Of a stretch of DNA of 32,000 nucleotides, positions 5,134 through 15,047 are shown piece after piece; the first letter of the stretch is position 1, and the number at the start of each line of letters is the position of its first letter. The translations under genes and the position numbers were made by a program. Origin of the DNA: Phycisphaera mikurensis NBRC 102666 (lineage in GTDB: Bacteria > Planctomycetota > Phycisphaerae > Phycisphaerales > Phycisphaeraceae); assembly GCF_000284115.1 (NCBI RefSeq), contig NC_017080.1, forward strand, positions 120,001 to 152,000. The letters run 5' to 3'. Below the pieces are notes generated by a model. It saw only the letters and a program-made list of their open reading frames with translations. It was not told the origin of the DNA and did not search any database.

Positions 5134-5720
5134 GCCCCGCGCCGGCCGATCCCGCCGTCCGCGCCTTCCGCCACTGCGGCGGCTGCGGCCGCCCCGGCCC
5201 GCGTGCCGAGGGCACCGCCGCCGTCTGCGGGGCCTGCGGCTGGTGCTTCTTCACCAACGTCGCCGCGGCCGCCGCCGTCCTCCTCGAGCTCCCCGGCGAC
5301 CCCCCGCGGCTGCTGCTGGTCCGCCGGAGCCGCGAGCCCGCCGCCGGGCGGCTGGGCATCCCCGGCGGCTTCGTCGACGCCGGCGAGATCGCCGAAGCCG
5401 CCGCCCGCCGCGAGCTGCGCGAGGAGCTCCGCCTCCGGCTCCCGCCCACGCCGCTGCGCTTCCTGTGCACCGCGAGCAACGCCTACCCCTACCGCGGCGT
5501 CGTGTACCGCACGCTGGACACCGTCTTCACCGCCCCGCTGGCTGCGGTCCCCCGCTGGTTCGACGCCGCGGAGATCGGCGCCCTCGTTCCCACCGACCCC
5601 TTCGCCGTCGGCGACGACGAGCTGGCCTTTCCCGCCACCCGGGCCGCGCTCGCGGCCTGGCGGGCGGCACGGCGGCCGGCGTCGTCCACCGGCCCGCGGA
5701 CCGCCGGGCCCAAGAGCTGA
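5130..5720 (+). CDS. NUDIX hydrolase with N-terminal CxxC...CxxC zinc ribbon
   Basis: This is the C-terminal 196 codons of the 410-aa tracked ORF. The proposed TTG start at 5130 overlaps the upstream stop (TTGA). Nudix box [24 protein letters not shown], preceded by CGGCG...CGACGW. The start codon is uncertain. Confidence 0.75.
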
Positions 5721-5880
5721 ATCCGGCCGCGGTCCGCGGGTCCGCGGACGCCCCAGGGTCCGCGTTGGCGGCGGCCGGCTCCGCGGGCCGCCGACCGGGG
5801 CACAGCGAGCGGCCCGGGAGCGCCCCCGCCCGGCGGCGGCGCTCCCGGCGGCCCCGCCCGGGCTCTACCTTCCGCTCCCC

Positions 5881-8279
<2,399 letters not shown>

Positions 8280-8286
<7 letters not shown>

Positions 8287-8744
8287 GCCCACCCCCTCCC
8301 GCCCCGCCCGCCTTCCGCTTGAGCACCGCGCAGAAGGTCGGCGTGTCCGCCGTGCTGATGCTCGCGGTCGCGTCGCTGGCGGCCGTGGTGGCCGCCGTGT
8401 ACTTCGACGTGACGGGCCCGTCGCCGGACGGGGCGCCCATCCTCGTGCCCGCCGGCCTGATCGCCGCCTGGTCCGCCATCGGCGTCGTCTTCGGCGTCGG
8501 GCTGCTCTCGCTGGTCCCGCCGCTGCTGCTGGCGGCCGGTTCGGCGGGCCCGCAGGCCGCGCCGCTGGGCTTCATGGCCGGGCTGATGACCCGCCTGTTC
8601 GGGACGCTGATCGGCGCCCTGGTGGGCACGCTGGGGCTCGGGCTCGCGCCGCGCCCGTTCCTCCTGACGCTGGCGGTGGTGTACGTGATGCTGCTCCCGG
8701 CAGAGCTGATCGGGCTGCCGAGGGTGAACCGCGGCGGCGACTGA
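8280..8744 (+). CDS. hypothetical small membrane protein
   Basis: 154 aa. The GTG start overlaps the topoisomerase stop (GTGGTGA). It has 4 predicted hydrophobic helices ([73 protein letters not shown]). No family recognised. Confidence 0.55.
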
Positions 8745-8806
8745 CGCGGCGACGCGGCGCCGGGCCGTCTCGGGTTCAGTCGGCGTCTACATCGGCGGAG
8801 TGGATG

Positions 8807-8945
8807 TGGCGGCTCGGGCGGACGGATGTGCTGGAAGCGGAAAACCCGCCCGGCCGCGGCTTCGGGCCGCGTCGGTTGCAATCAGCTTCCACATCGACGG
8901 AGTCGATGAGCCACCTGAGCGGGTGGCTCATCCACTCCGTGGATG
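8807..8945. repeat. repeat unit 1 (S variant A plus complete H module)
   Basis: S at 8807-8891 has the variant-A core GACGGATGTGCTGGAAGCGGAAAACCCGCCCGGCC. H at 8892-8945 is CATCGACGGAGTCGATGAGCCACCTGAGCGGGTGGCTCATCCACTCCGTGGATG. Confidence 0.9.
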
Positions 8946-9084
8946 TGGCGGCTCGGGCGAACGGAGGAGCGGGAGCGGGGAACGACGCCCGGTTGCGGCT
9001 TTGGGCCGTCTCGGTTGCAACCCGCTTCTACATCGACGGAGTCGATGAGCCACCTGAGCGGGTGGCTCGTCCACTCCGTGGATG
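8946..9084. repeat. repeat unit 2 (S variant B plus complete H module)
   Basis: S has the variant-B core AACGGAGGAGCGGGAGCGGGGAACGACGCCCGGTTG. H is complete. Confidence 0.9.
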
Positions 9085-9223
9085 TGGCGGCTCGGGCGAA
9101 CGGAGGAGCGGGAGCGGGGAACGACGCCCGGTTGCGGCTTCGGGCCGTCTCGGTTGCAACCCGCTTCTACATCGACGGAGTCGATGAGCCACCTGGGCGG
9201 GTGGCTCATCCACTACGTGGATG
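9085..9223. repeat. repeat unit 3 (S variant B plus complete H module)
   Basis: Differs from unit 2 at only a handful of positions: TTTGGG to TTCGGG, loop TGAGCG to TGGGCG, CTCG to CTCA, and TCC to TAC. Confidence 0.9.
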
Positions 9224-9362
9224 TGGCGGCTGAGGCGGACGGATGTGCTGGAAGCGGAAAACCCGCCCGGCCGCGGCTTCGGGCCGTCTCGGTTGCAATG
9301 AGCTTCTACATCGACGGAGTCGATGAGCCACCTGGGCGGGTGGCTCGTCCACTCCGTGGATG
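9224..9362. repeat. repeat unit 4 (S variant A plus complete H module)
   Basis: Same variant-A core as unit 1 (GACGGATGTGCTGGAAGCGGAAAACCCGCCCGGCC), with a few substitutions such as GCTGAGG for GCTCGGG. Confidence 0.9.
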
Positions 9363-9471
9363 TGGCGGCTCGGGCGAACGGAGGAGCGGGAGCGGGGAAC
9401 GACGCCGGATCGCGGCTTCGGGCCGTTTCGGTTGCATTCGGCTTCCACATCGACGGAGTCGATGAGCCACC
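9363..9471. repeat. repeat unit 5 (variant-B-like S, H truncated after its left arm)
   Basis: The variant-B 5' half is retained and the 3' part of S has diverged (GCCGGATCGCGG, GTTTCGGTTGCATTCGGCTTCCA). Only CATCGACGGAGTCGATGAGCCACC (9448-9471) of H is present, after which unique sequence begins. Confidence 0.85.
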
Positions 9472-9958
9472 TGCGGGCGCCGCTTCGGGCCCAAGCGCCG
9501 CGGTCCGCCCCGCTTTTCCCGTTCCCTCCCGGGTTTCTCCCCGCCCTGCCCACCCGTTTCGCCCCGCGGGCCTGTCGCGGGCGCTGTGGACAACCCCGGG
9601 CGCTGCGCACGGCGGCGCCCGAGGGAGGCGACGACCCGGACAGGCGGTGCGGCGTCCGGGATCCCCCGGCGGGTCCTGCCGCGACAGCCTCACCGGGAAC
9701 TGACGCTCTGCGCCAGCTCCCGCGACAGTTTCCACCGAGCCCCTGGGATTCACGCAAGGACCGTTCTGAAAGCAGCTTGCCCCTCGATGACCGAAGCTTT
9801 TCCCCTTGGCGCCAGCCAACAAGACGGCCTCCGGAGGATTCTCATCTGTTCCTGACTTCTTCCTCGCCCACCCGGGGAGACCGAGCCGCCCGGCGCCGCG
9901 AGGGGCATCGGCCCAACGGGTACGGTGGCTCCAGCGGGGCCGGGAAAAACTTTCAAGA

Positions 9959-9990
9959 CCCGCCCCTCCCCCGCCCCGCCCCGCCCCGCC
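9959..9990 (-). other. G-quadruplex-prone G-run tract (C-runs on the plus strand) upstream of moxR
   Basis: The plus strand reads CCC G CCCC T CCCCC G CCCC G CCCC G CCCC G CC. That is six C3-5 runs separated by single nucleotides, about 100 nt upstream of the moxR ATG at 10093. Confidence 0.6.
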
Positions 9991-10092
9991 GCGCCGCGGA
10001 TTGCGGGGCGTGCCGGCCCTCCGCGGCGGCGGTCCGCGGTCCAGGCGGCCCCGGCCCGCTCCGCCCGCTCCCCGCCCCCGTAGCGTCACCCC

Positions 10093-11157
<1,065 letters not shown>

Positions 11158-11262
11158 GGCGGACTGCAGCCGGGACCGCAAACGGGCGATACGGGCCGGC
11201 CCCTCGCTCCCGCTAGCCTGCGAACCGACGACCGACCCCCCCGACCGACGGCGACCCCGCTC

Positions 11263-11733
11263 ATGACCCAGAACGCCGAGACGAAGGACGAGGCGGCGAC
11301 CGACCCGCTCGCGAAGCTCCGGGAGCAGTCCCAGGAGCCTTCCTATCTCTCCAAGCTGCGGGACCAGCGGACGCACGCGATCCTCGGCTCGGCCACGCGG
11401 GTGCACCAGACGCTGGGCCCGGGCTTCTCCGCCGCCGTCTACCGCGAGGCCCTCGCGATCGAGTTCGAGGGCCAGGCGATCCCGTTCATTGCCGAGCCGG
11501 AGCTGCCGATCCGCTACCGCGGGCGGACGCTGGGCGCCACGCACCGGGCGGCCTTCCTGTGCCACCAGCGGATCCTGCTGGAGGTCAAGGCCGAGGCGCG
11601 CACGCAGGCCTCCGCCGAGAGCCACGTGCTCAACTACCTCAAGAGCACGGGCTTCCCGCTGGGGCTGGCACTGAACTTCGGGGCCGATCGCTTTGAGTAC
11701 CGGCTGCTGATCAACGCGACGGACAGCCGGTAG
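11263..11733 (+). CDS. GxxExxY-family protein (PD-(D/E)XK-like fold), with divergent signature residues
   Basis: ATG start, 156 aa. The region ILGSATRVHQTLGPGFSAAVYREALAIEFEGQAIPF...YRG...LLEVKA...HVLNYLKSTGFPLGLALNFG follows the GxxExxY family pattern. The signature Glu is Ala here (GFSAAVY). An extra N-terminal extension of about 35 aa is rich in charged residues. Confidence 0.8.
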   Translation: MTQNAETKDEAATDPLAKLREQSQEPSYLSKLRDQRTHAILGSATRVHQTLGPGFSAAVYREALAIEFEGQAIPFIAEPELPIRYRGRTLGATHRAAFLCHQRILLEVKAEARTQASAESHVLNYLKSTGFPLGLALNFGADRFEYRLLINATDSR

Positions 11734-13237: not shown

Positions 13238-14773
13238 ATGAGCGACAACGCCCCGCCCTCGGTCATGCTCCAGGCCTTCACGTGGCGGACGCCCGCCGAC
13301 GGCGGGTTCTGGGAACGCCTCGGCAAGCAGGGCCGCCACCTGGCCGAGATCGGCTTCACGCACGTGTGGTGCCCGCCCCCGTGCAAGGGCGGCGGCGGCG
13401 CCGCGGACCGCGGCTACGGCCTGTACGACCTCTACGACCTCGGCGAGTTCGACCAGAAAGGCGCCGTCCGCACGCGTTACGGGACGAAGGAGGCGTTGGT
13501 CGCGGCCGTGGCGGCGCTCAAGGAGGCGGGGCTCGAGCCGATCGCCGACGTCGTGCTCAACCACCGGATGGGGGCCGACGAGCAGGAGAGCTTCGAGGTT
13601 CAGGAGGTGGATCCCAGCAACCGCCTCGAGAACATCGGCGAGCCCTTCGAGCTGACCGCCTGGACGGGGTACACCTTCCCGGGACGGCTGCGGGAGCCGG
13701 GCGACCCCAATGACTTCCGCTGGCGTTGGCACCACTTCACCGCCGTCGACCAGGCGCCCGAGGGCGACGAGTCGGACCGGCCGCGGCTGTTCCGCATCGC
13801 CGACCGCGGCTGGGAGCCGGAGGTCGACGACGAGAACGGCAACGCCGACTTCCTGATGGGCTGCGACGTGAACCTCGACCAGGACGACGTCCGGGCCGAG
13901 CTGTTCCGCTGGGGGGATTGGTTCCTGGCCGAGACCGGCTTCTCGGGCTTCCGCTTCGATGCGGCCAAGCACATGAGCCGGCGCTTCCTCCGCGACTTCC
14001 TCGGCCACGTCCGCGCCCCCCGCGGCGAAGACCACCCCGGCGGCGGGCACTTCGCGGTGAGCGAGTACGGCAGCGGCGACCCCGCCGCGATCCGCGCCTT
14101 CCTCGACGCGACCGGCGGGGCGACGCAGGCCTTCGACTTCCCGCTGCACTACGCCTTCGCGGCGGCGGGCGCGGCCATGAACGGGCAAGGCGAGCTCGAC
14201 CTGCGCGGTCTCTTCGACGGCGCCGTCGTCCAGACCCACCCCGACCTCGCGGTCACCTTCGTCGACAACCACGACTCCGACCCGGCGCAGGAGGTGGGCG
14301 GGTGGGTGGACGACGCCTTCAAGCCGCACGCCTACGCCGCGATCCTGCTGCGGGCCGGCGGGATGCCTTGCGTCTTCGGCGGCGACCTGGACTTCCTCCG
14401 TGGCGGCGTGGGCCTGCCGGGGAACGAGGGCGACGCGGCGCCGGACTGCCCGCCGCTGACCGATCACGGCGTCGTGATCCGCCGGCTGATGGACGCCCGG
14501 CGGGGCTTCGCCTTCGGCGAGCAGGAGGAGGTCGCGGTGGAGGCCGGGCACCGCGCGTGGATCCGCCGCGGGACCGACGCGCACCCCGGGGTGATGGTGG
14601 TGGTGATCAACGCCGGCGACGACGACGTGACAATCGAGGCGGACACCCGCCGCGGCGGGCAGCTCTTCCGCGAGCTCGTCCGCCCGGACGCGGGCGAGGA
14701 GGTGACCGCGGGCGACGACGGGACCGCTGCGCTGCGGTGCCCCGCGCGCGACGTCGCGGTTTGGGTGTGCTGA
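13238..14773 (+). CDS. GH13 alpha-amylase, cytoplasmic type (no signal peptide)
   Basis: The ATG at 13238 gives 511 aa, taken from within the 672-aa tracked ORF. All four GH13 conserved regions are present: DVVLNH, GFRFDAAKHM, FAVSEYGS and FVDNHD. The N-terminus VMLQAFTW resembles the E. coli AmyA / Bacillus liquefying-type amylases. Confidence 0.9.
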   Translation: MSDNAPPSVMLQAFTWRTPADGGFWERLGKQGRHLAEIGFTHVWCPPPCKGGGGAADRGYGLYDLYDLGEFDQKGAVRTRYGTKEALVAAVAALKEAGLEPIADVVLNHRMGADEQESFEVQEVDPSNRLENIGEPFELTAWTGYTFPGRLREPGDPNDFRWRWHHFTAVDQAPEGDESDRPRLFRIADRGWEPEVDDENGNADFLMGCDVNLDQDDVRAELFRWGDWFLAETGFSGFRFDAAKHMSRRFLRDFLGHVRAPRGEDHPGGGHFAVSEYGSGDPAAIRAFLDATGGATQAFDFPLHYAFAAAGAAMNGQGELDLRGLFDGAVVQTHPDLAVTFVDNHDSDPAQEVGGWVDDAFKPHAYAAILLRAGGMPCVFGGDLDFLRGGVGLPGNEGDAAPDCPPLTDHGVVIRRLMDARRGFAFGEQEEVAVEAGHRAWIRRGTDAHPGVMVVVINAGDDDVTIEADTRRGGQLFRELVRPDAGEEVTAGDDGTAALRCPARDVAVWVC

Positions 14774-14786
14774 GGCGGCCGGGCCG

Positions 14787-15047
14787 TCAGCGCTTCCCGG
14801 AGACCTTGTCCTTGACCTTCGGGGCGAACTGCGTCGCGAGCCAGATGAGCAGCGGGAAGACGATGAGGTCGTCGATCTGCCCCGCGATCGGCAGGAAGTC
14901 GGGCACGAGGTCCAGCGGCGAGAGCAGGTAGATCGCCGCGAGCACGCCGAAGAGGATCTTCGCCCACAGCGGCGTGGCGCCGCTCTTGAAGACGCGCCAG
15001 ACCTTGGCGAAGCGGGCGAGGGGGTTGAGTCGGTCGATGACGGCCAT
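14787..15047 (-). CDS. DUF1232 (YkvA-family) small membrane protein
   Basis: 86 aa with an ATG start. The motif ILFGVLAAIYLLSPLDLVPDFLPIAGQIDDLIV is the hallmark of DUF1232. Confidence 0.8.
   Translation of the reverse strand: MAVIDRLNPLARFAKVWRVFKSGATPLWAKILFGVLAAIYLLSPLDLVPDFLPIAGQIDDLIVFPLLIWLATQFAPKVKDKVSGKR

What the first reader, a model, noticed from the sequence alone, without database searches (positions are those of the whole stretch)
8892..8945. 54-nt module made of three nested palindromes, with a compensated double substitution favouring local 17-nt palindromes over the long hairpin
H reads CATCGAC-GGA-GTCGATG / GAGCCACC-TGAGCG-GGTGGCTC / CATCCAC-TCC-GTGGATG. In unit 1 the sub-palindromes are P1 8892-8908, P2 8908-8929 and P3 8929-8945. 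The two 24-nt arms can also pair with each other as one long hairpin, but with two mismatches: G.G at H positions 5:50 and C.C at positions 13:42. Those two differences are exactly a compensated pair within each arm, CATCGAC/GTCGATG versus CATCCAC/GTGGATG. So each arm stays a perfect 7-bp stem / 3-nt loop palindrome while the long hairpin is weakened. The pattern is identical in all four complete copies. The substitutions between copies fall in loops (TGAGCG/TGGGCG, TCC/TAC) or at a position that gives a T:A to T:G (wobble) change. This is what is expected if the short palindromes are the functional units, either as small RNA/ssDNA hairpins or as two related 17-bp dimeric operator-like sites flanking a central hairpin. 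Because all copies derive from one duplication, conservation across copies alone is weak evidence.
Basis: seen in the sequence. Interest (0 to 1): 0.7.

Follow-up and report, generated by a model that had tools for sequence, protein, structure and literature searches.

The report
Junction of tandem 137-bp palindromic repeats
The 54-nt "triple palindrome" is real, but it is the seam where two neighbouring copies of a 137-bp repeat with inverted ends abut. This repeat family is previously undescribed (no mention found in the searched literature), resembles REP/BIME and MITE repeats, and is scattered through Phycisphaera-type genomes, where its two 17-bp palindromes are the conserved parts.

Summary
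H sits at 8892, 9031, 9170 and 9309, with a half copy at 9448, inside a 139-bp tandem array in a Phycisphaera mikurensis intergenic gap.

H is not the unit, though. The conserved unit is a 137-nt element, E. It runs from C[A/G]GGTGGCT + P3 (CATCCAC-N3-GTGGATG) to P1 (CATCG[A/T]C-N3-G[T/A]CGATG) + AGCCACCTG. These ends are imperfect terminal inverted repeats of about 29 bp. H is the right end of one E, a 2-nt linker, and the left end of the next.

- **Related arrays.** Arrays at unrelated loci keep E at 136-138 nt while the linker is 2, about 4, 38/39 or 94 nt. They lie at two more P. mikurensis loci and three loci of an uncultured relative.
- **Short palindromes.** Each stays a local palindrome through compensated changes (A:T to T:A between lineages, C:G to T:A within one array).
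- **P1 versus P3.** The difference is conserved and is larger in the relative.
- **Selection.** The ends are far more conserved than the interior.
- **Folding.** The long hairpin still dominates thermodynamically.
- **"P2".** It is only the abutted outer ends of two elements.

The "54-nt module with a central hairpin" does not. Best reading: a new REP/BIME- or MITE-like interspersed repeat. Its mobilising or binding protein is unknown.

The parts
8755..8806 (+). Diverged partial copy at the left edge of the array. It corresponds to the right-hand third of an E unit. It ends in a collapsed junction, the hybrid 17-mer CATCGGC-GGA-GTGGATG at 8790-8806.
   Evidence: Aligns to the 3' part of the unit at 63-73% identity (family D2). 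The left arm is P1-like and the right arm equals P3, so it is H minus its central 37 nt. The covariance model gives a weak full-length hit at 8777-8917 (82.8 bits).
8807..8917 (+). Remainder of the first E unit: type A interior, GGTTGCAA box at 8874-8881, P1 at 8892-8908, and the outer end AGCCACCTG.
8920..9056 (+). E unit, 137 nt, with a type B interior.
   Evidence: Regex extraction, alignment A4, model R1 at 125.8 bits.
9059..9195 (+). E unit, 137 nt, type B. Its P3 carries the CGTCCAC variant.
9198..9334 (+). E unit, 137 nt, with a type A interior. Its P3 loop reads TAC.
9337..9473 (+). Last E unit, 137 nt, type B. The array stops exactly at its right end, ...GAGCCACCTG.
8892..8945 (.). 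H junction 1, the finding itself: right end of one E (P1 + AGCCACCTG), the linker AG at 8918-8919, and the left end of the next E (CGGGTGGCT + P3).
9031..9084 (.). H junction 2, with linker AG at 9057-9058.
9170..9223 (.). H junction 3, with linker GG at 9196-9197.
9309..9362 (.). H junction 4, with linker GG at 9335-9336.
9448..9473 (.). Terminal half-junction, P1 + AGCCACCTG only. It is the free right end of the array.
5881..8286 (+). Upstream gene encoding a GyrA/ParC-type topoisomerase subunit A (801 aa as called in the NCBI record).
   Evidence: Pfam DNA_topoisoIV, E = 2e-132. Gene calls in L001 and L002.
8280..8744 (+). 154-aa hydrophobic ORF with no Pfam match, restricted to Phycisphaerae. 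The array begins about 10 nt after its stop codon.
10093..11157 (+). Downstream gene, a MoxR-type AAA ATPase. About 620 nt of non-repeat, partly conserved non-coding DNA lies between the array and this gene.

Best explanation
H is the head-to-tail seam between consecutive copies of a discrete 137-bp non-coding repeat, E, that is dispersed in Phycisphaerae genomes.

**Anatomy of E.** E has imperfect terminal inverted repeats of about 29 bp. Each end consists of a 9-nt outer block (C[A/G]GGTGGCT ... AGCCACCTG) next to a 17-bp palindrome with a 7-bp stem and a 3-nt centre. P3 (CATCCAC...) sits at the left end and P1 (CATCG[A/T]C...) at the right end. The interior keeps its length but not its sequence, apart from a GGTTGCA box.

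**Organisation.** E occurs mostly as head-to-tail tandem clusters close to gene ends. This matches the organisation described for BIMEs and tandem REPIN clusters, in which inverted palindromic units are separated by variable linkers and reiterated in tandem.

**Shown.**
- The unit and its boundaries.
- Dispersal to unrelated loci.
- Gain or loss of whole units between strains.
- Stronger conservation of the ends than of the interior.
- Compensated changes that keep each 17-mer palindromic.
- A conserved P1/P3 difference.

**Inferred.**
- The 17-bp palindromes plus the outer 9-mers are recognition sites for a protein that moves or amplifies E. It could read them as dyad-symmetric duplex sites or as small hairpins on single-stranded DNA, as the HUH transposases that act on REPs do.
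- P1 differs from P3 either to mark the two ends or to limit perfect long-palindrome formation.
- Arrays grow and shrink by unequal recombination or slippage.
- If the array is transcribed with the upstream operon, each junction folds as one long, very stable hairpin. It could then block 3' exonucleases or terminate transcription, as reported for REP/BIME.
For: **E is a discrete unit.**
- E is 136-138 nt in 23 copies from four arrays, whereas the linkers are 2, 38/39 and 94 nt. A fifth array, translated as PSMK_04550, has a 141-nt period, implying a linker of about 4 nt.
- Seven of eight array edges fall at an E end or inside a linker.
- A solitary diverged copy with both outer ends lies 5-8 nt after a stop codon in L029 and L043.

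**Dispersal.**
- Three P. mikurensis loci carry the family: PSMK_04550, PSMK_06030 (this window) and PSMK_09380.
- In the uncultured relative, three array loci (two in L028, one in L029) lie in different gene contexts on two contigs. The L029 locus is also seen in the strain variant L043.
- No syntenic copy exists in relatives that share the gyrA-like/moxR gap.

**Dynamics.** L043 is 96% identical to L029 but has two fewer units.

**Selection on the ends.**
- Variable sites are 11 of 58 in the ends against 48 of 80 in the interior (Fisher p = 2e-6). In the window the counts are 3 of 58 against 23 of 80 (p = 4e-4).
- Divergence between lineages is 0-0.18 in the ends and 0.58 in the interior.

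**Local palindromes.** 99.4% of cells are paired, two pairs changed on both sides, and 0 of 500 shuffles reached the observed covariation score.

**Long-range pairing.** 85.5% of cells are paired. Mismatches are fixed at 14:125 and 22:117 in 23 of 23 copies, and at 15:124 and 21:118 in 19 of 23. The loop triplets co-vary at 17:122.

**Structure signal.** The interior alone folds no better than shuffled sequence (z = +0.5, -0.4, 0.0), so all the structure signal comes from the ends.

**Fit with the literature on REP, BIME and REPIN organisation.**
- PMC3733652 reports stems of 5-13 bp, short loops, dimers, and clusters reiterated in tandem with flanking DNA. It also reports G:T pairs, subfamilies with complementary stem changes, and presence in Planctomycetes.
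- PMC3116915 describes tandem REPIN clusters and singlets produced by internal deletion.
- PMC8266576 describes REP + inverted REP + variable linker in tandem copies, and a 16-nt perfect palindrome with a 3-nt loop in S. maltophilia.
Against: - No transposase or other candidate partner protein was seen in the 32-kb window or in the roughly 63 kb fetched from the relative.
- No target-site duplication is visible at array edges.
- The canonical REP tag, an unpaired GTAG 5' of the stem-loop, is not present. Here CTA precedes P1 and TAG/TGG follows P3, which is the opposite polarity, and these bases pair within the inverted ends.
- Total copy number per genome is unknown. The genome scan did not return even the source locus, and the window holds no copy outside the array.
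- Copies within an array are not independent, so the number of independent compensated events is small: one change between lineages, one within an array, and the original 5:13 pair.
- Transcription has not been shown. No promoter-like or U-tailed terminator site was found.
Confidence: 0.6

Rival explanations
1. H is a 54-nt functional module in which two related 17-bp dimeric operator-like sites, or small hairpins, flank a central hairpin, and it acts locally on the neighbouring genes.
For: The 17-mers are conserved palindromes with compensated changes. P1 and P3 are kept distinct in every copy and lineage.
Against: - The central hairpin is not conserved as a compact element. Its loop is 6, 7-8, 42 or 98 nt.
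- The same ends occur at unrelated loci next to unrelated genes.
- A solitary E exists without any H junction.
- Syntenic gaps in relatives lack it.
- The local hairpins are thermodynamically negligible.
Confidence: 0.12
2. The functional entity is the long RNA hairpin. H, or the paired ends of a single E, would act in the 3' UTR of the upstream operon as a U-tail-independent terminator or an exonuclease block. The internal loops would be incidental or serve as nuclease or protein determinants.
For: - The hairpins are very stable: -41.6 kcal/mol for H, and z = -5.3 to -5.8 for whole units.
- The arrays and the solitary copy all lie at or near gene 3' ends, and the two that start within about 10 nt of a stop codon have the same orientation as the upstream gene.
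- Most one-sided changes are G:U-compatible on the + strand.
- The loop triplets co-vary across the long pairing.
Against: - The mismatches are fixed and increase from two to four in the relative, rather than being repaired.
- Compensation acts within arms, against the long stem.
- No U-tract is present.
- A single hairpin would suffice, yet arrays hold 4-9 copies.
- This reading does not explain the conserved 137-nt length or the GGTTGCA box.
- It is compatible with the best explanation as a secondary effect.
Confidence: 0.15
3. The array is a neutral local minisatellite. A chance palindromic sequence was tandemly duplicated, and the compensated pair arose by hairpin-templated (quasipalindrome) mutation without any function.
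For: All window copies derive from duplication. Arrays change copy number by whole units. Some copies carry uncompensated changes and look decayed.
Against: - The family is present at several unrelated loci in two lineages, with a conserved unit length and conserved ends but a diverged interior.
- Templated correction through the more stable long hairpin should erase the P1/P3 difference, yet that difference is fixed everywhere.
Confidence: 0.06
4. The array is an integron-like cluster of attC sites (a CALIN). H would be an attC site with paired 7-bp core sites in each arm, a variable central region and conserved extrahelical bases. The 85-nt spacer would be a tiny non-coding cassette.
For: The architecture is similar. 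Two inverted 7-bp boxes lie in each arm, the arms are complementary with fixed mismatches, and the central length varies from 6 to 98 nt.
Against: - The R boxes RYYYAAC and GTTRRRY are absent, read directly from the sequence.
- The box spacing is 3 nt, not 5-6.
- The "cassette" is the same 85 nt in every unit and is conserved in length across loci.
- No integrase gene lies in the sequenced neighbourhoods.
Confidence: 0.03
5. The array is a DnaA-box cluster or origin-associated repeat. P3 (TCATCCAC / GTGGATG) would provide paired DnaA-box-like sites next to a conserved perfect box.
For: - P3 matches TT[A/G]TCCACA at 7 of 9 positions, and its A/G polymorphism falls on the tolerated box position.
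- The only perfect TTGTCCACA of the window lies 110 nt downstream of the array and is conserved in relatives.
Against: - Apart from the four duplicated P3 sites and that one perfect box, the gap holds no further box-like sites.
- The GC-skew profile is flat, and the flanking genes do not diverge from the gap.
- P1 is not box-like.
- The same repeats occur at several other loci.
Confidence: 0.04

Closest known systems
REP / BIME clusters and REPINs (repetitive extragenic palindromes, bacterial interspersed mosaic elements, REP doublets forming hairpins)
   Same: - Short stem-loop units (7-bp stem, 3-nt loop) occur in inverted pairs that together form a long hairpin.
- There are two unit subtypes, each internally complementary, comparable to the y and z REPs of E. 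coli.
- The linker between the pair is variable.
- Pairs are reiterated in tandem together with flanking DNA.
- Copies lie outside genes, near gene 3' ends.
- G:T intermediates and complementary stem variants occur.
- A singlet is made by deleting the centre of a doublet.
- Copy number varies between strains (PMC3733652, PMC3116915, PMC8266576).
   Different: - There is no unpaired 5' GTAG/GTRG tag. The tag-like CTA/TAG has the opposite polarity and is base-paired within the ends.
- The conserved-length unit is the 137-nt stretch between doublets, not the doublet.
- No RAYT (TnpA-REP) gene has been seen so far.
- Copy number appears low.
- The host is a Phycisphaerae planctomycete.
Bacterial MITEs (for example Correia/NEMIS of Neisseria, ERIC/IRU of enterobacteria; characterised from my own knowledge)
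   Same: - It is a small (137 bp) non-coding element of fixed length.
- Its terminal inverted repeats of 26-29 bp pair into a long hairpin if transcribed.
- It is dispersed at intergenic sites.
- The ends are conserved more than the interior.
   Different: - No target-site duplication and no autonomous parent with the same ends have been identified.
- It occurs predominantly as head-to-tail arrays rather than single insertions.
- Each end contains its own perfect 17-bp palindrome.
Abutted IRR-IRL junctions of IS circles and tandem IS dimers (IS30, IS21, IS911; from my own knowledge)
   Same: The right and left ends are separated by only 2-4 bp in the two P. mikurensis arrays. This is the geometry of reactive IS end junctions.
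   Different: - The element has no transposase gene.
- Linkers of 38 and 94 nt occur in the relative.
- The arrays are stable enough to be inherited and to diverge.
Integron attC sites
   Same: The palindromy is nested, with inverted 7-bp boxes inside each of two complementary arms. The mismatches are fixed, and the central length varies.
   Different: - The R-box consensus is absent.
- The box spacing is 3 nt.
- The "cassettes" are identical.
- No integrase is nearby.

Membership tests
REP (GTAG-type) / BIME | Short (about 20-50 nt) extragenic palindromic stem-loop. | tested here: met
   P1 and P3 have 7-bp stems and 3-nt loops, and 99.4% of cells are paired across 23 copies. All copies are intergenic.
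REP (GTAG-type) / BIME | Conserved unpaired tetranucleotide GTAG (GTRG) immediately 5' of the stem-loop on the recognised strand (PMC8266576, PMC3733652). | tested here: not met
   CTA or CCA precedes P1, and TAG, TGG or GAG follows P3. The GTAG-like motif is therefore 3' of the stem-loop, and it pairs within the inverted ends (columns 27-29 with 110-112).
REP (GTAG-type) / BIME | REP and inverted REP separated by a variable linker, often in consecutive tandem copies. | tested here: met
   P1-linker-P3 pairs are reiterated 4-9 times, with inner linkers giving loops of 6 to 98 nt.
REP (GTAG-type) / BIME | High copy number, from tens to thousands per genome. | tested here: inconclusive
   P. mikurensis has at least 3 loci. 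The relative has three array loci in about 42 kb from two contigs. Whole genomes could not be scanned, because the genome scan missed even the source locus.
REP (GTAG-type) / BIME | Associated RAYT (TnpA-REP) gene flanked by the repeats (a REPtron). | not testable with these tools
   No Y1/HUH transposase domain appears among the Pfam hits of the window or of L028, L029 and L043.
MITE | Small non-coding element of defined length bounded by terminal inverted repeats. | tested here: met
   E is 136-138 nt in 23 copies. The ends are 29 nt and 85.5% complementary. The spurious ORFs have no homologues other than other arrays.
MITE | Target-site duplication flanking each insertion. | tested here: inconclusive
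   No direct repeat is seen at the outer edges of the four arrays or of the solitary copy. Tandem amplification and decay could have erased it.
MITE | Multiple dispersed copies at unrelated sites. | tested here: met
MITE | Autonomous element with the same ends that encodes the transposase. | not testable with these tools
   None lies in the DNA available. There was no match in the phage, plasmid or viral collections.
Integron attC | R'' RYYYAAC and R' GTTRRRY boxes at the outer ends, with 5-6 bp between the R and L boxes. | tested here: not met
   The outer boxes are CATCGAC and GTGGATG with a 3-nt spacing.
Any Rfam RNA family | Score at or above the family gathering threshold. | tested here: not met
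   There were 0 matches at gathering thresholds. Only generic long-hairpin miRNA models matched, far below threshold (34.8 bits against 100).

The most novel reading that the evidence does not exclude
The two 17-bp palindromes are hairpin or dyad recognition sites for an as yet unidentified DNA enzyme. It would not be a canonical RAYT, because the tag polarity is reversed. It would distinguish the left (P3) and right (P1) ends and join units head to tail. That would make this a new REP-like mobilisation and amplification system specific to PVC-group bacteria. The fixed internal mismatches of the junction hairpin would be its strand or end discriminators.
Probability: 0.15. Interest if true: 0.65.

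Novelty: new variant of a known kind. Interest (0 to 1): 0.4.

Why it matters
**A new repeat family.** If confirmed, this is an undescribed family of interspersed palindromic repeats in Phycisphaerae, a poorly studied planctomycete class. Its features are sharply defined:
- A fixed 137-bp unit.
- Ends that each contain a perfect 17-bp palindrome.
- A conserved difference between the two ends.

**A testable question.** These features make it practical to ask which protein reads such sites, and whether it reads them as duplex dyads or as single-strand hairpins.

**Practical consequences.**
- The arrays break short-read assemblies; several contigs end at them.
- They have been annotated as hypothetical proteins (PSMK_04550, PSMK_06030, PSMK_09380).
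- They vary in copy number between strains, so they could serve as typing markers.

**A method note.** Translating the spurious ORFs of a repeat and searching protein databases recovered homologous DNA repeats that the pattern scans of the nucleotide collections missed.

Tried and rejected
**DNA scans**
- The genome-contig scan for GATGAGCCACC-N6-GGTGGCTC gave 17 single chance hits in unrelated taxa. It did not return the source genome, so it says nothing about dispersal.
- Two metagenome scans gave 0 hits and 13 chance hits in low-GC DNA.
- The viral scan gave 0 hits. The phage and plasmid BLAST searches found no match.

**Rfam.** Nothing was found.

**Promoter and terminator consensus scan.** Nothing was found. 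A sigma-54-like reading of TGGAAG-N4-TTGCA is off by one in spacing on both strands and is absent in three of the five units (by eye).

**Synteny route.** The orthologous gap was examined in relatives whose neighbouring protein is 61-71% identical.
- None has the repeat.
- Each has different hairpin pairs.
- An apparent similarity in L004 (TTGCAA...CATCGCC-TGC-GGCGATC...hairpin) was not picked up by the covariance model and is treated as unproven.

**Origin of replication.** This was rejected for lack of box enrichment and of any skew switch.

**Protein-coding repeat.**
- Periods of 139, 141 and 175/176 nt, and 1-nt indels between units, are incompatible with a conserved frame.
- The "homologues" are only other arrays.
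- P0012 is a false positive, a genuine repeat protein.

**Structured interior RNA.** This was rejected because the interior folds no better than shuffles and shows no covariation.

**First unit.** Model R1 reads the left edge as a complete first E unit at 8777-8917, which would put that edge on a unit boundary. I prefer to read 8755-8806 as a collapsed junction, because that stretch aligns over about 50 nt with the right part of the unit.

**PSMK_04550 DNA.** The look-up by protein failed because the gene is not on record.
Full report
**1. Source and setting**

The window is Phycisphaera mikurensis, with about 75% G+C. An NCBI contig, GCA_014207395.1 JACHEL010000005, carries the identical locus. 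The neighbouring 154-aa protein is named as P. mikurensis by its source.

The finding lies in a 1.35-kb non-coding gap. Upstream is an operon made of a GyrA/ParC-type gene (5881-8286) and an overlapping 154-aa hydrophobic ORF (8280-8744). Downstream is a MoxR-type AAA gene (10093-11157). Tandem Repeats Finder reports a 139-bp repeat with 4.8 copies at 8800-9473. A diverged partial copy extends the array back to about 8755, directly after the stop codon.

**2. The observation**

- P1 (CATCGACGGAGTCGATG) occurs exactly five times.
- P2 occurs four times, twice exactly and twice with one loop change.
- P3 occurs four times. Two copies carry CGTCCAC and one has a TAC loop.
- Chance expectation for such matches is 0.18 and 0.00.

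The two mismatches of the long hairpin (5:50 G.G and 13:42 C.C) are palindromic partner positions inside each arm. The energetic part of the title does not hold, however. As RNA the long hairpin has -41.6 kcal/mol against -28.4 for three local hairpins. As DNA the values are -23.9 against -17.9. The local stems have equilibrium probabilities of about 5e-9 and 5e-4. The mismatches weaken the long hairpin but leave it dominant.

**3. Finding relatives**

DNA pattern scans of the genome, metagenome and viral collections gave only chance hits. BLAST against phages and plasmids found nothing, and Rfam has no family for this sequence. Syntenic gaps in relatives whose flanking protein is 61-71% identical lack the repeat.

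The productive route was to translate the spurious ORFs that run through the array and search protein collections.
- The plus-strand ORF found only PSMK_06030, which is the array itself as annotated in strain NBRC 102666.
- The minus-strand ORF found P0011, P0013, P0014 and P0015. A follow-up search found P0016.
- P0011 and P0015 are PSMK_04550 and PSMK_09380 of P. mikurensis NBRC 102666. The window's own genome therefore carries the family at three or more loci.
- P0013, P0014 and P0016 led to three contigs of one ENA metagenome, ERZ25039505.
  - L028 holds two arrays, 9823-11362 with 9 units and 14316-14978 with 4 units, with period 175/176.
  - L029 holds one array, 9470-10760, with 6 units and period 231.
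  - L043 is a 96%-identical strain variant of L029 with two fewer units.

**4. What the unit really is**

Cutting all arrays at C[A/G]GGTGGCTC ... GAGCCACCTG gives an element, E, of 137 nt (range 136-138) in 23 of 23 copies. The DNA between consecutive E copies is:
- 2 nt in the window;
- 38/39 nt in both L028 arrays;
- 94 nt in L029 and L043.

The 141-nt period of PSMK_04550 implies about 4 nt. The left 29 nt and the right 29 nt of E are imperfect inverted repeats. P3 lies in the left end and P1 in the right end.

Its "loop" is 6 nt here, 7-8 nt at PSMK_04550, 42 nt in L028 and 98 nt in L029.

Further evidence supports E as the unit.
- Arrays consist of whole numbers of E. Seven of eight edges fall at an E end or within linker-like sequence.
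- A covariance model built from the 23 copies finds a solitary, diverged E just after a stop codon in L029 and L043. It has both outer ends (CGGGTGGCG ... AGCCACCCG).
- The model finds no further copy in the window, and none in the syntenic loci of relatives.

At the window's left edge, the junction is collapsed to one hybrid 17-mer, CATCGGC-GGA-GTGGATG. This is H minus its central 37 nt. Bertels and Rainey describe REP singlets arising by this kind of event.

**5. What is conserved**

The ends are far more conserved than the interior.
- In the relative, variable sites are 11 of 58 in the ends against 48 of 80 in the interior (p = 2e-6).
- In the window, they are 3 of 58 against 23 of 80 (p = 4e-4).
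- Divergence between lineages is 0-0.18 in the ends and 0.58 in the interior.

The interior keeps its length and a GGTTGCA box, but it does not fold better than shuffled sequence (z = +0.5, -0.4, 0.0) and shows no conserved pairing.

The two 17-mers are paired in 99.4% of cells. P1 positions 6:12 are A:T in P. mikurensis and T:A in all 19 copies of the relative. One P3 copy in L028 is CATCCAT...ATGGATG, and its neighbour shows the one-sided intermediate.

Pairing of the two ends with each other is 85.5%. Mismatches are fixed at the 5:13 positions in all 23 copies and at 6:12 in the 19 copies of the relative. The central triplets of P1 and P3 nevertheless co-vary (GGA/TCC to GGG/CCC).

Both symmetries are therefore maintained: each 17-mer on itself, and the two ends against each other. 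The difference between the ends is also conserved. Some copies carry uncompensated changes, as expected for a repeat family with decaying members.

Even with four mismatches and long linkers, the long hairpin remains the predicted fold of a single strand.

**6. Interpretation**

The anatomy is that of interspersed palindromic repeats. Short stem-loop units occur in inverted pairs of two subtypes, with variable linkers. The pairs are reiterated in tandem with flanking DNA and sit at gene 3' ends. Stem variants are complementary, and copy number changes quickly. These features are described for REP/BIME and REPIN clusters, including in Planctomycetes (PMC3733652, PMC3116915, PMC8266576). In parallel, E meets the formal description of a MITE: a small, non-coding, fixed-length, dispersed element bounded by inverted ends.

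I therefore read the array as a BIME-like cluster of a new MITE/REP-like family. The 17-bp palindromes plus the outer 9-mers would be the modules recognised by whatever protein spreads or amplifies it. That last step is inference. No transposase was seen in the roughly 95 kb inspected, and no target duplication was found.

Membership in the canonical GTAG-REP family fails on a defining feature. The tag-like CTA/TAG has the opposite polarity and is base-paired. Integron attC, origin or DnaA-box cluster, structured RNA, sRNA gene and coding-repeat readings were each tested and found weak (see the rival explanations and the tried-and-rejected section).

A transcript-level effect of the very stable junction hairpins, as a terminator or exonuclease block, is plausible as a secondary role. 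Supporting points are location and orientation. The arrays and the solitary copy lie at or near gene 3' ends; the window array starts about 10 nt after a stop codon and the solitary copy 5-8 nt after one, both in the orientation of the upstream gene. Most one-sided changes are also G:U-compatible on the plus strand. This role is unproven.

**7. Verdict**

The "54-nt module with central hairpin" framing is replaced by a 137-bp repeat with inverted ends. This is a new variant of a known kind, of moderate interest.

Noticed in passing
window 9560-10095; L004 5020-5576; L027 3590-4073: Non-coding blocks upstream of the MoxR-type gene are conserved in three Phycisphaerae.
- CTGTGGA[C/A]AACCCCGGGCGC. 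It contains the only perfect TTGTCCACA DnaA-type box of the 32-kb window, at 9585-9593 on the minus strand.
- TGGCGCCAG[G/C]CAACAAGACGGnnTCCG (window 9806-9835), with further GGCGCCAG copies.
- CCCGTAGCGTC just before the start codon.
These may be promoter, 5' UTR or regulator sites.
   Followed up: partly
L004 4513-4537 and 4824-4850; L027 3279-3320 and 3415-3456; L003 4503-4531; L008 4478-4520: In the same gap, downstream of the 154-aa ORF, each relative carries its own, unrelated strong hairpin or pair of inverted hairpin copies. The two L027 copies differ by a compensated A:T to G:C change in the inner stem (by eye). Several contigs end exactly at these hairpins. The gap looks like a hot spot for palindromic repeats.
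   Followed up: partly
window 8800-9048 (+); also PSMK_04550 and PSMK_09380 elsewhere in the genome: Three annotated hypothetical proteins of P. mikurensis NBRC 102666 (PSMK_06030, PSMK_04550, PSMK_09380) are translations of these repeats. Their only "homologues" are other arrays, so they are almost certainly spurious gene calls.
   Followed up: yes
window 8807-9473; L028 9803-11362: The arrays have a higher-order structure. The window units carry two interior variants in the order A-B-B-A-B. In L028 a 351-bp double period scores better than 175 bp (92% against 89%). Amplification therefore occurred in steps of more than one unit.
   Followed up: partly
window 5203-8286 and 8280-8744: The longest ORF of the GyrA/ParC-type gene is 1027 aa, but the Pfam domain starts at residue 272 and relatives are 801-823 aa, so the true start is probably near 5881. 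Its stop overlaps the start of a 154-aa hydrophobic ORF. That ORF has no Pfam family and only 8 database relatives, all in the same position.
   Followed up: partly
window 9959-9995: A (CCCGC)n microsatellite of about 7 copies, with a C-rich tract, lies just upstream of the MoxR start.
   Followed up: no
L043 20653-20809; L029 20645-20806: The solitary diverged E has, at the position of P1, a different perfect 7-3-7 palindrome (CGCTCGC-TGA-GCGAGCG) directly before AGCCACCCG in L043. This could mean the geometry is conserved with a new stem sequence. It could equally be a chance product of a (GCGA)n run.
   Followed up: no
Genome-contig scan: The scan for a pattern present four times in the window did not return the P. 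mikurensis genome at all. The locus or the genome is masked or absent in that collection, so the result cannot be used as evidence against other copies.
   Followed up: no
P0012: A 1488-aa protein with eight near-identical ~100-aa repeats scored E = 1e-20 against the translated repeat ORF. It is a genuine repeat protein and an artefact of repetitive, compositionally biased matching, not a relative.
   Followed up: partly
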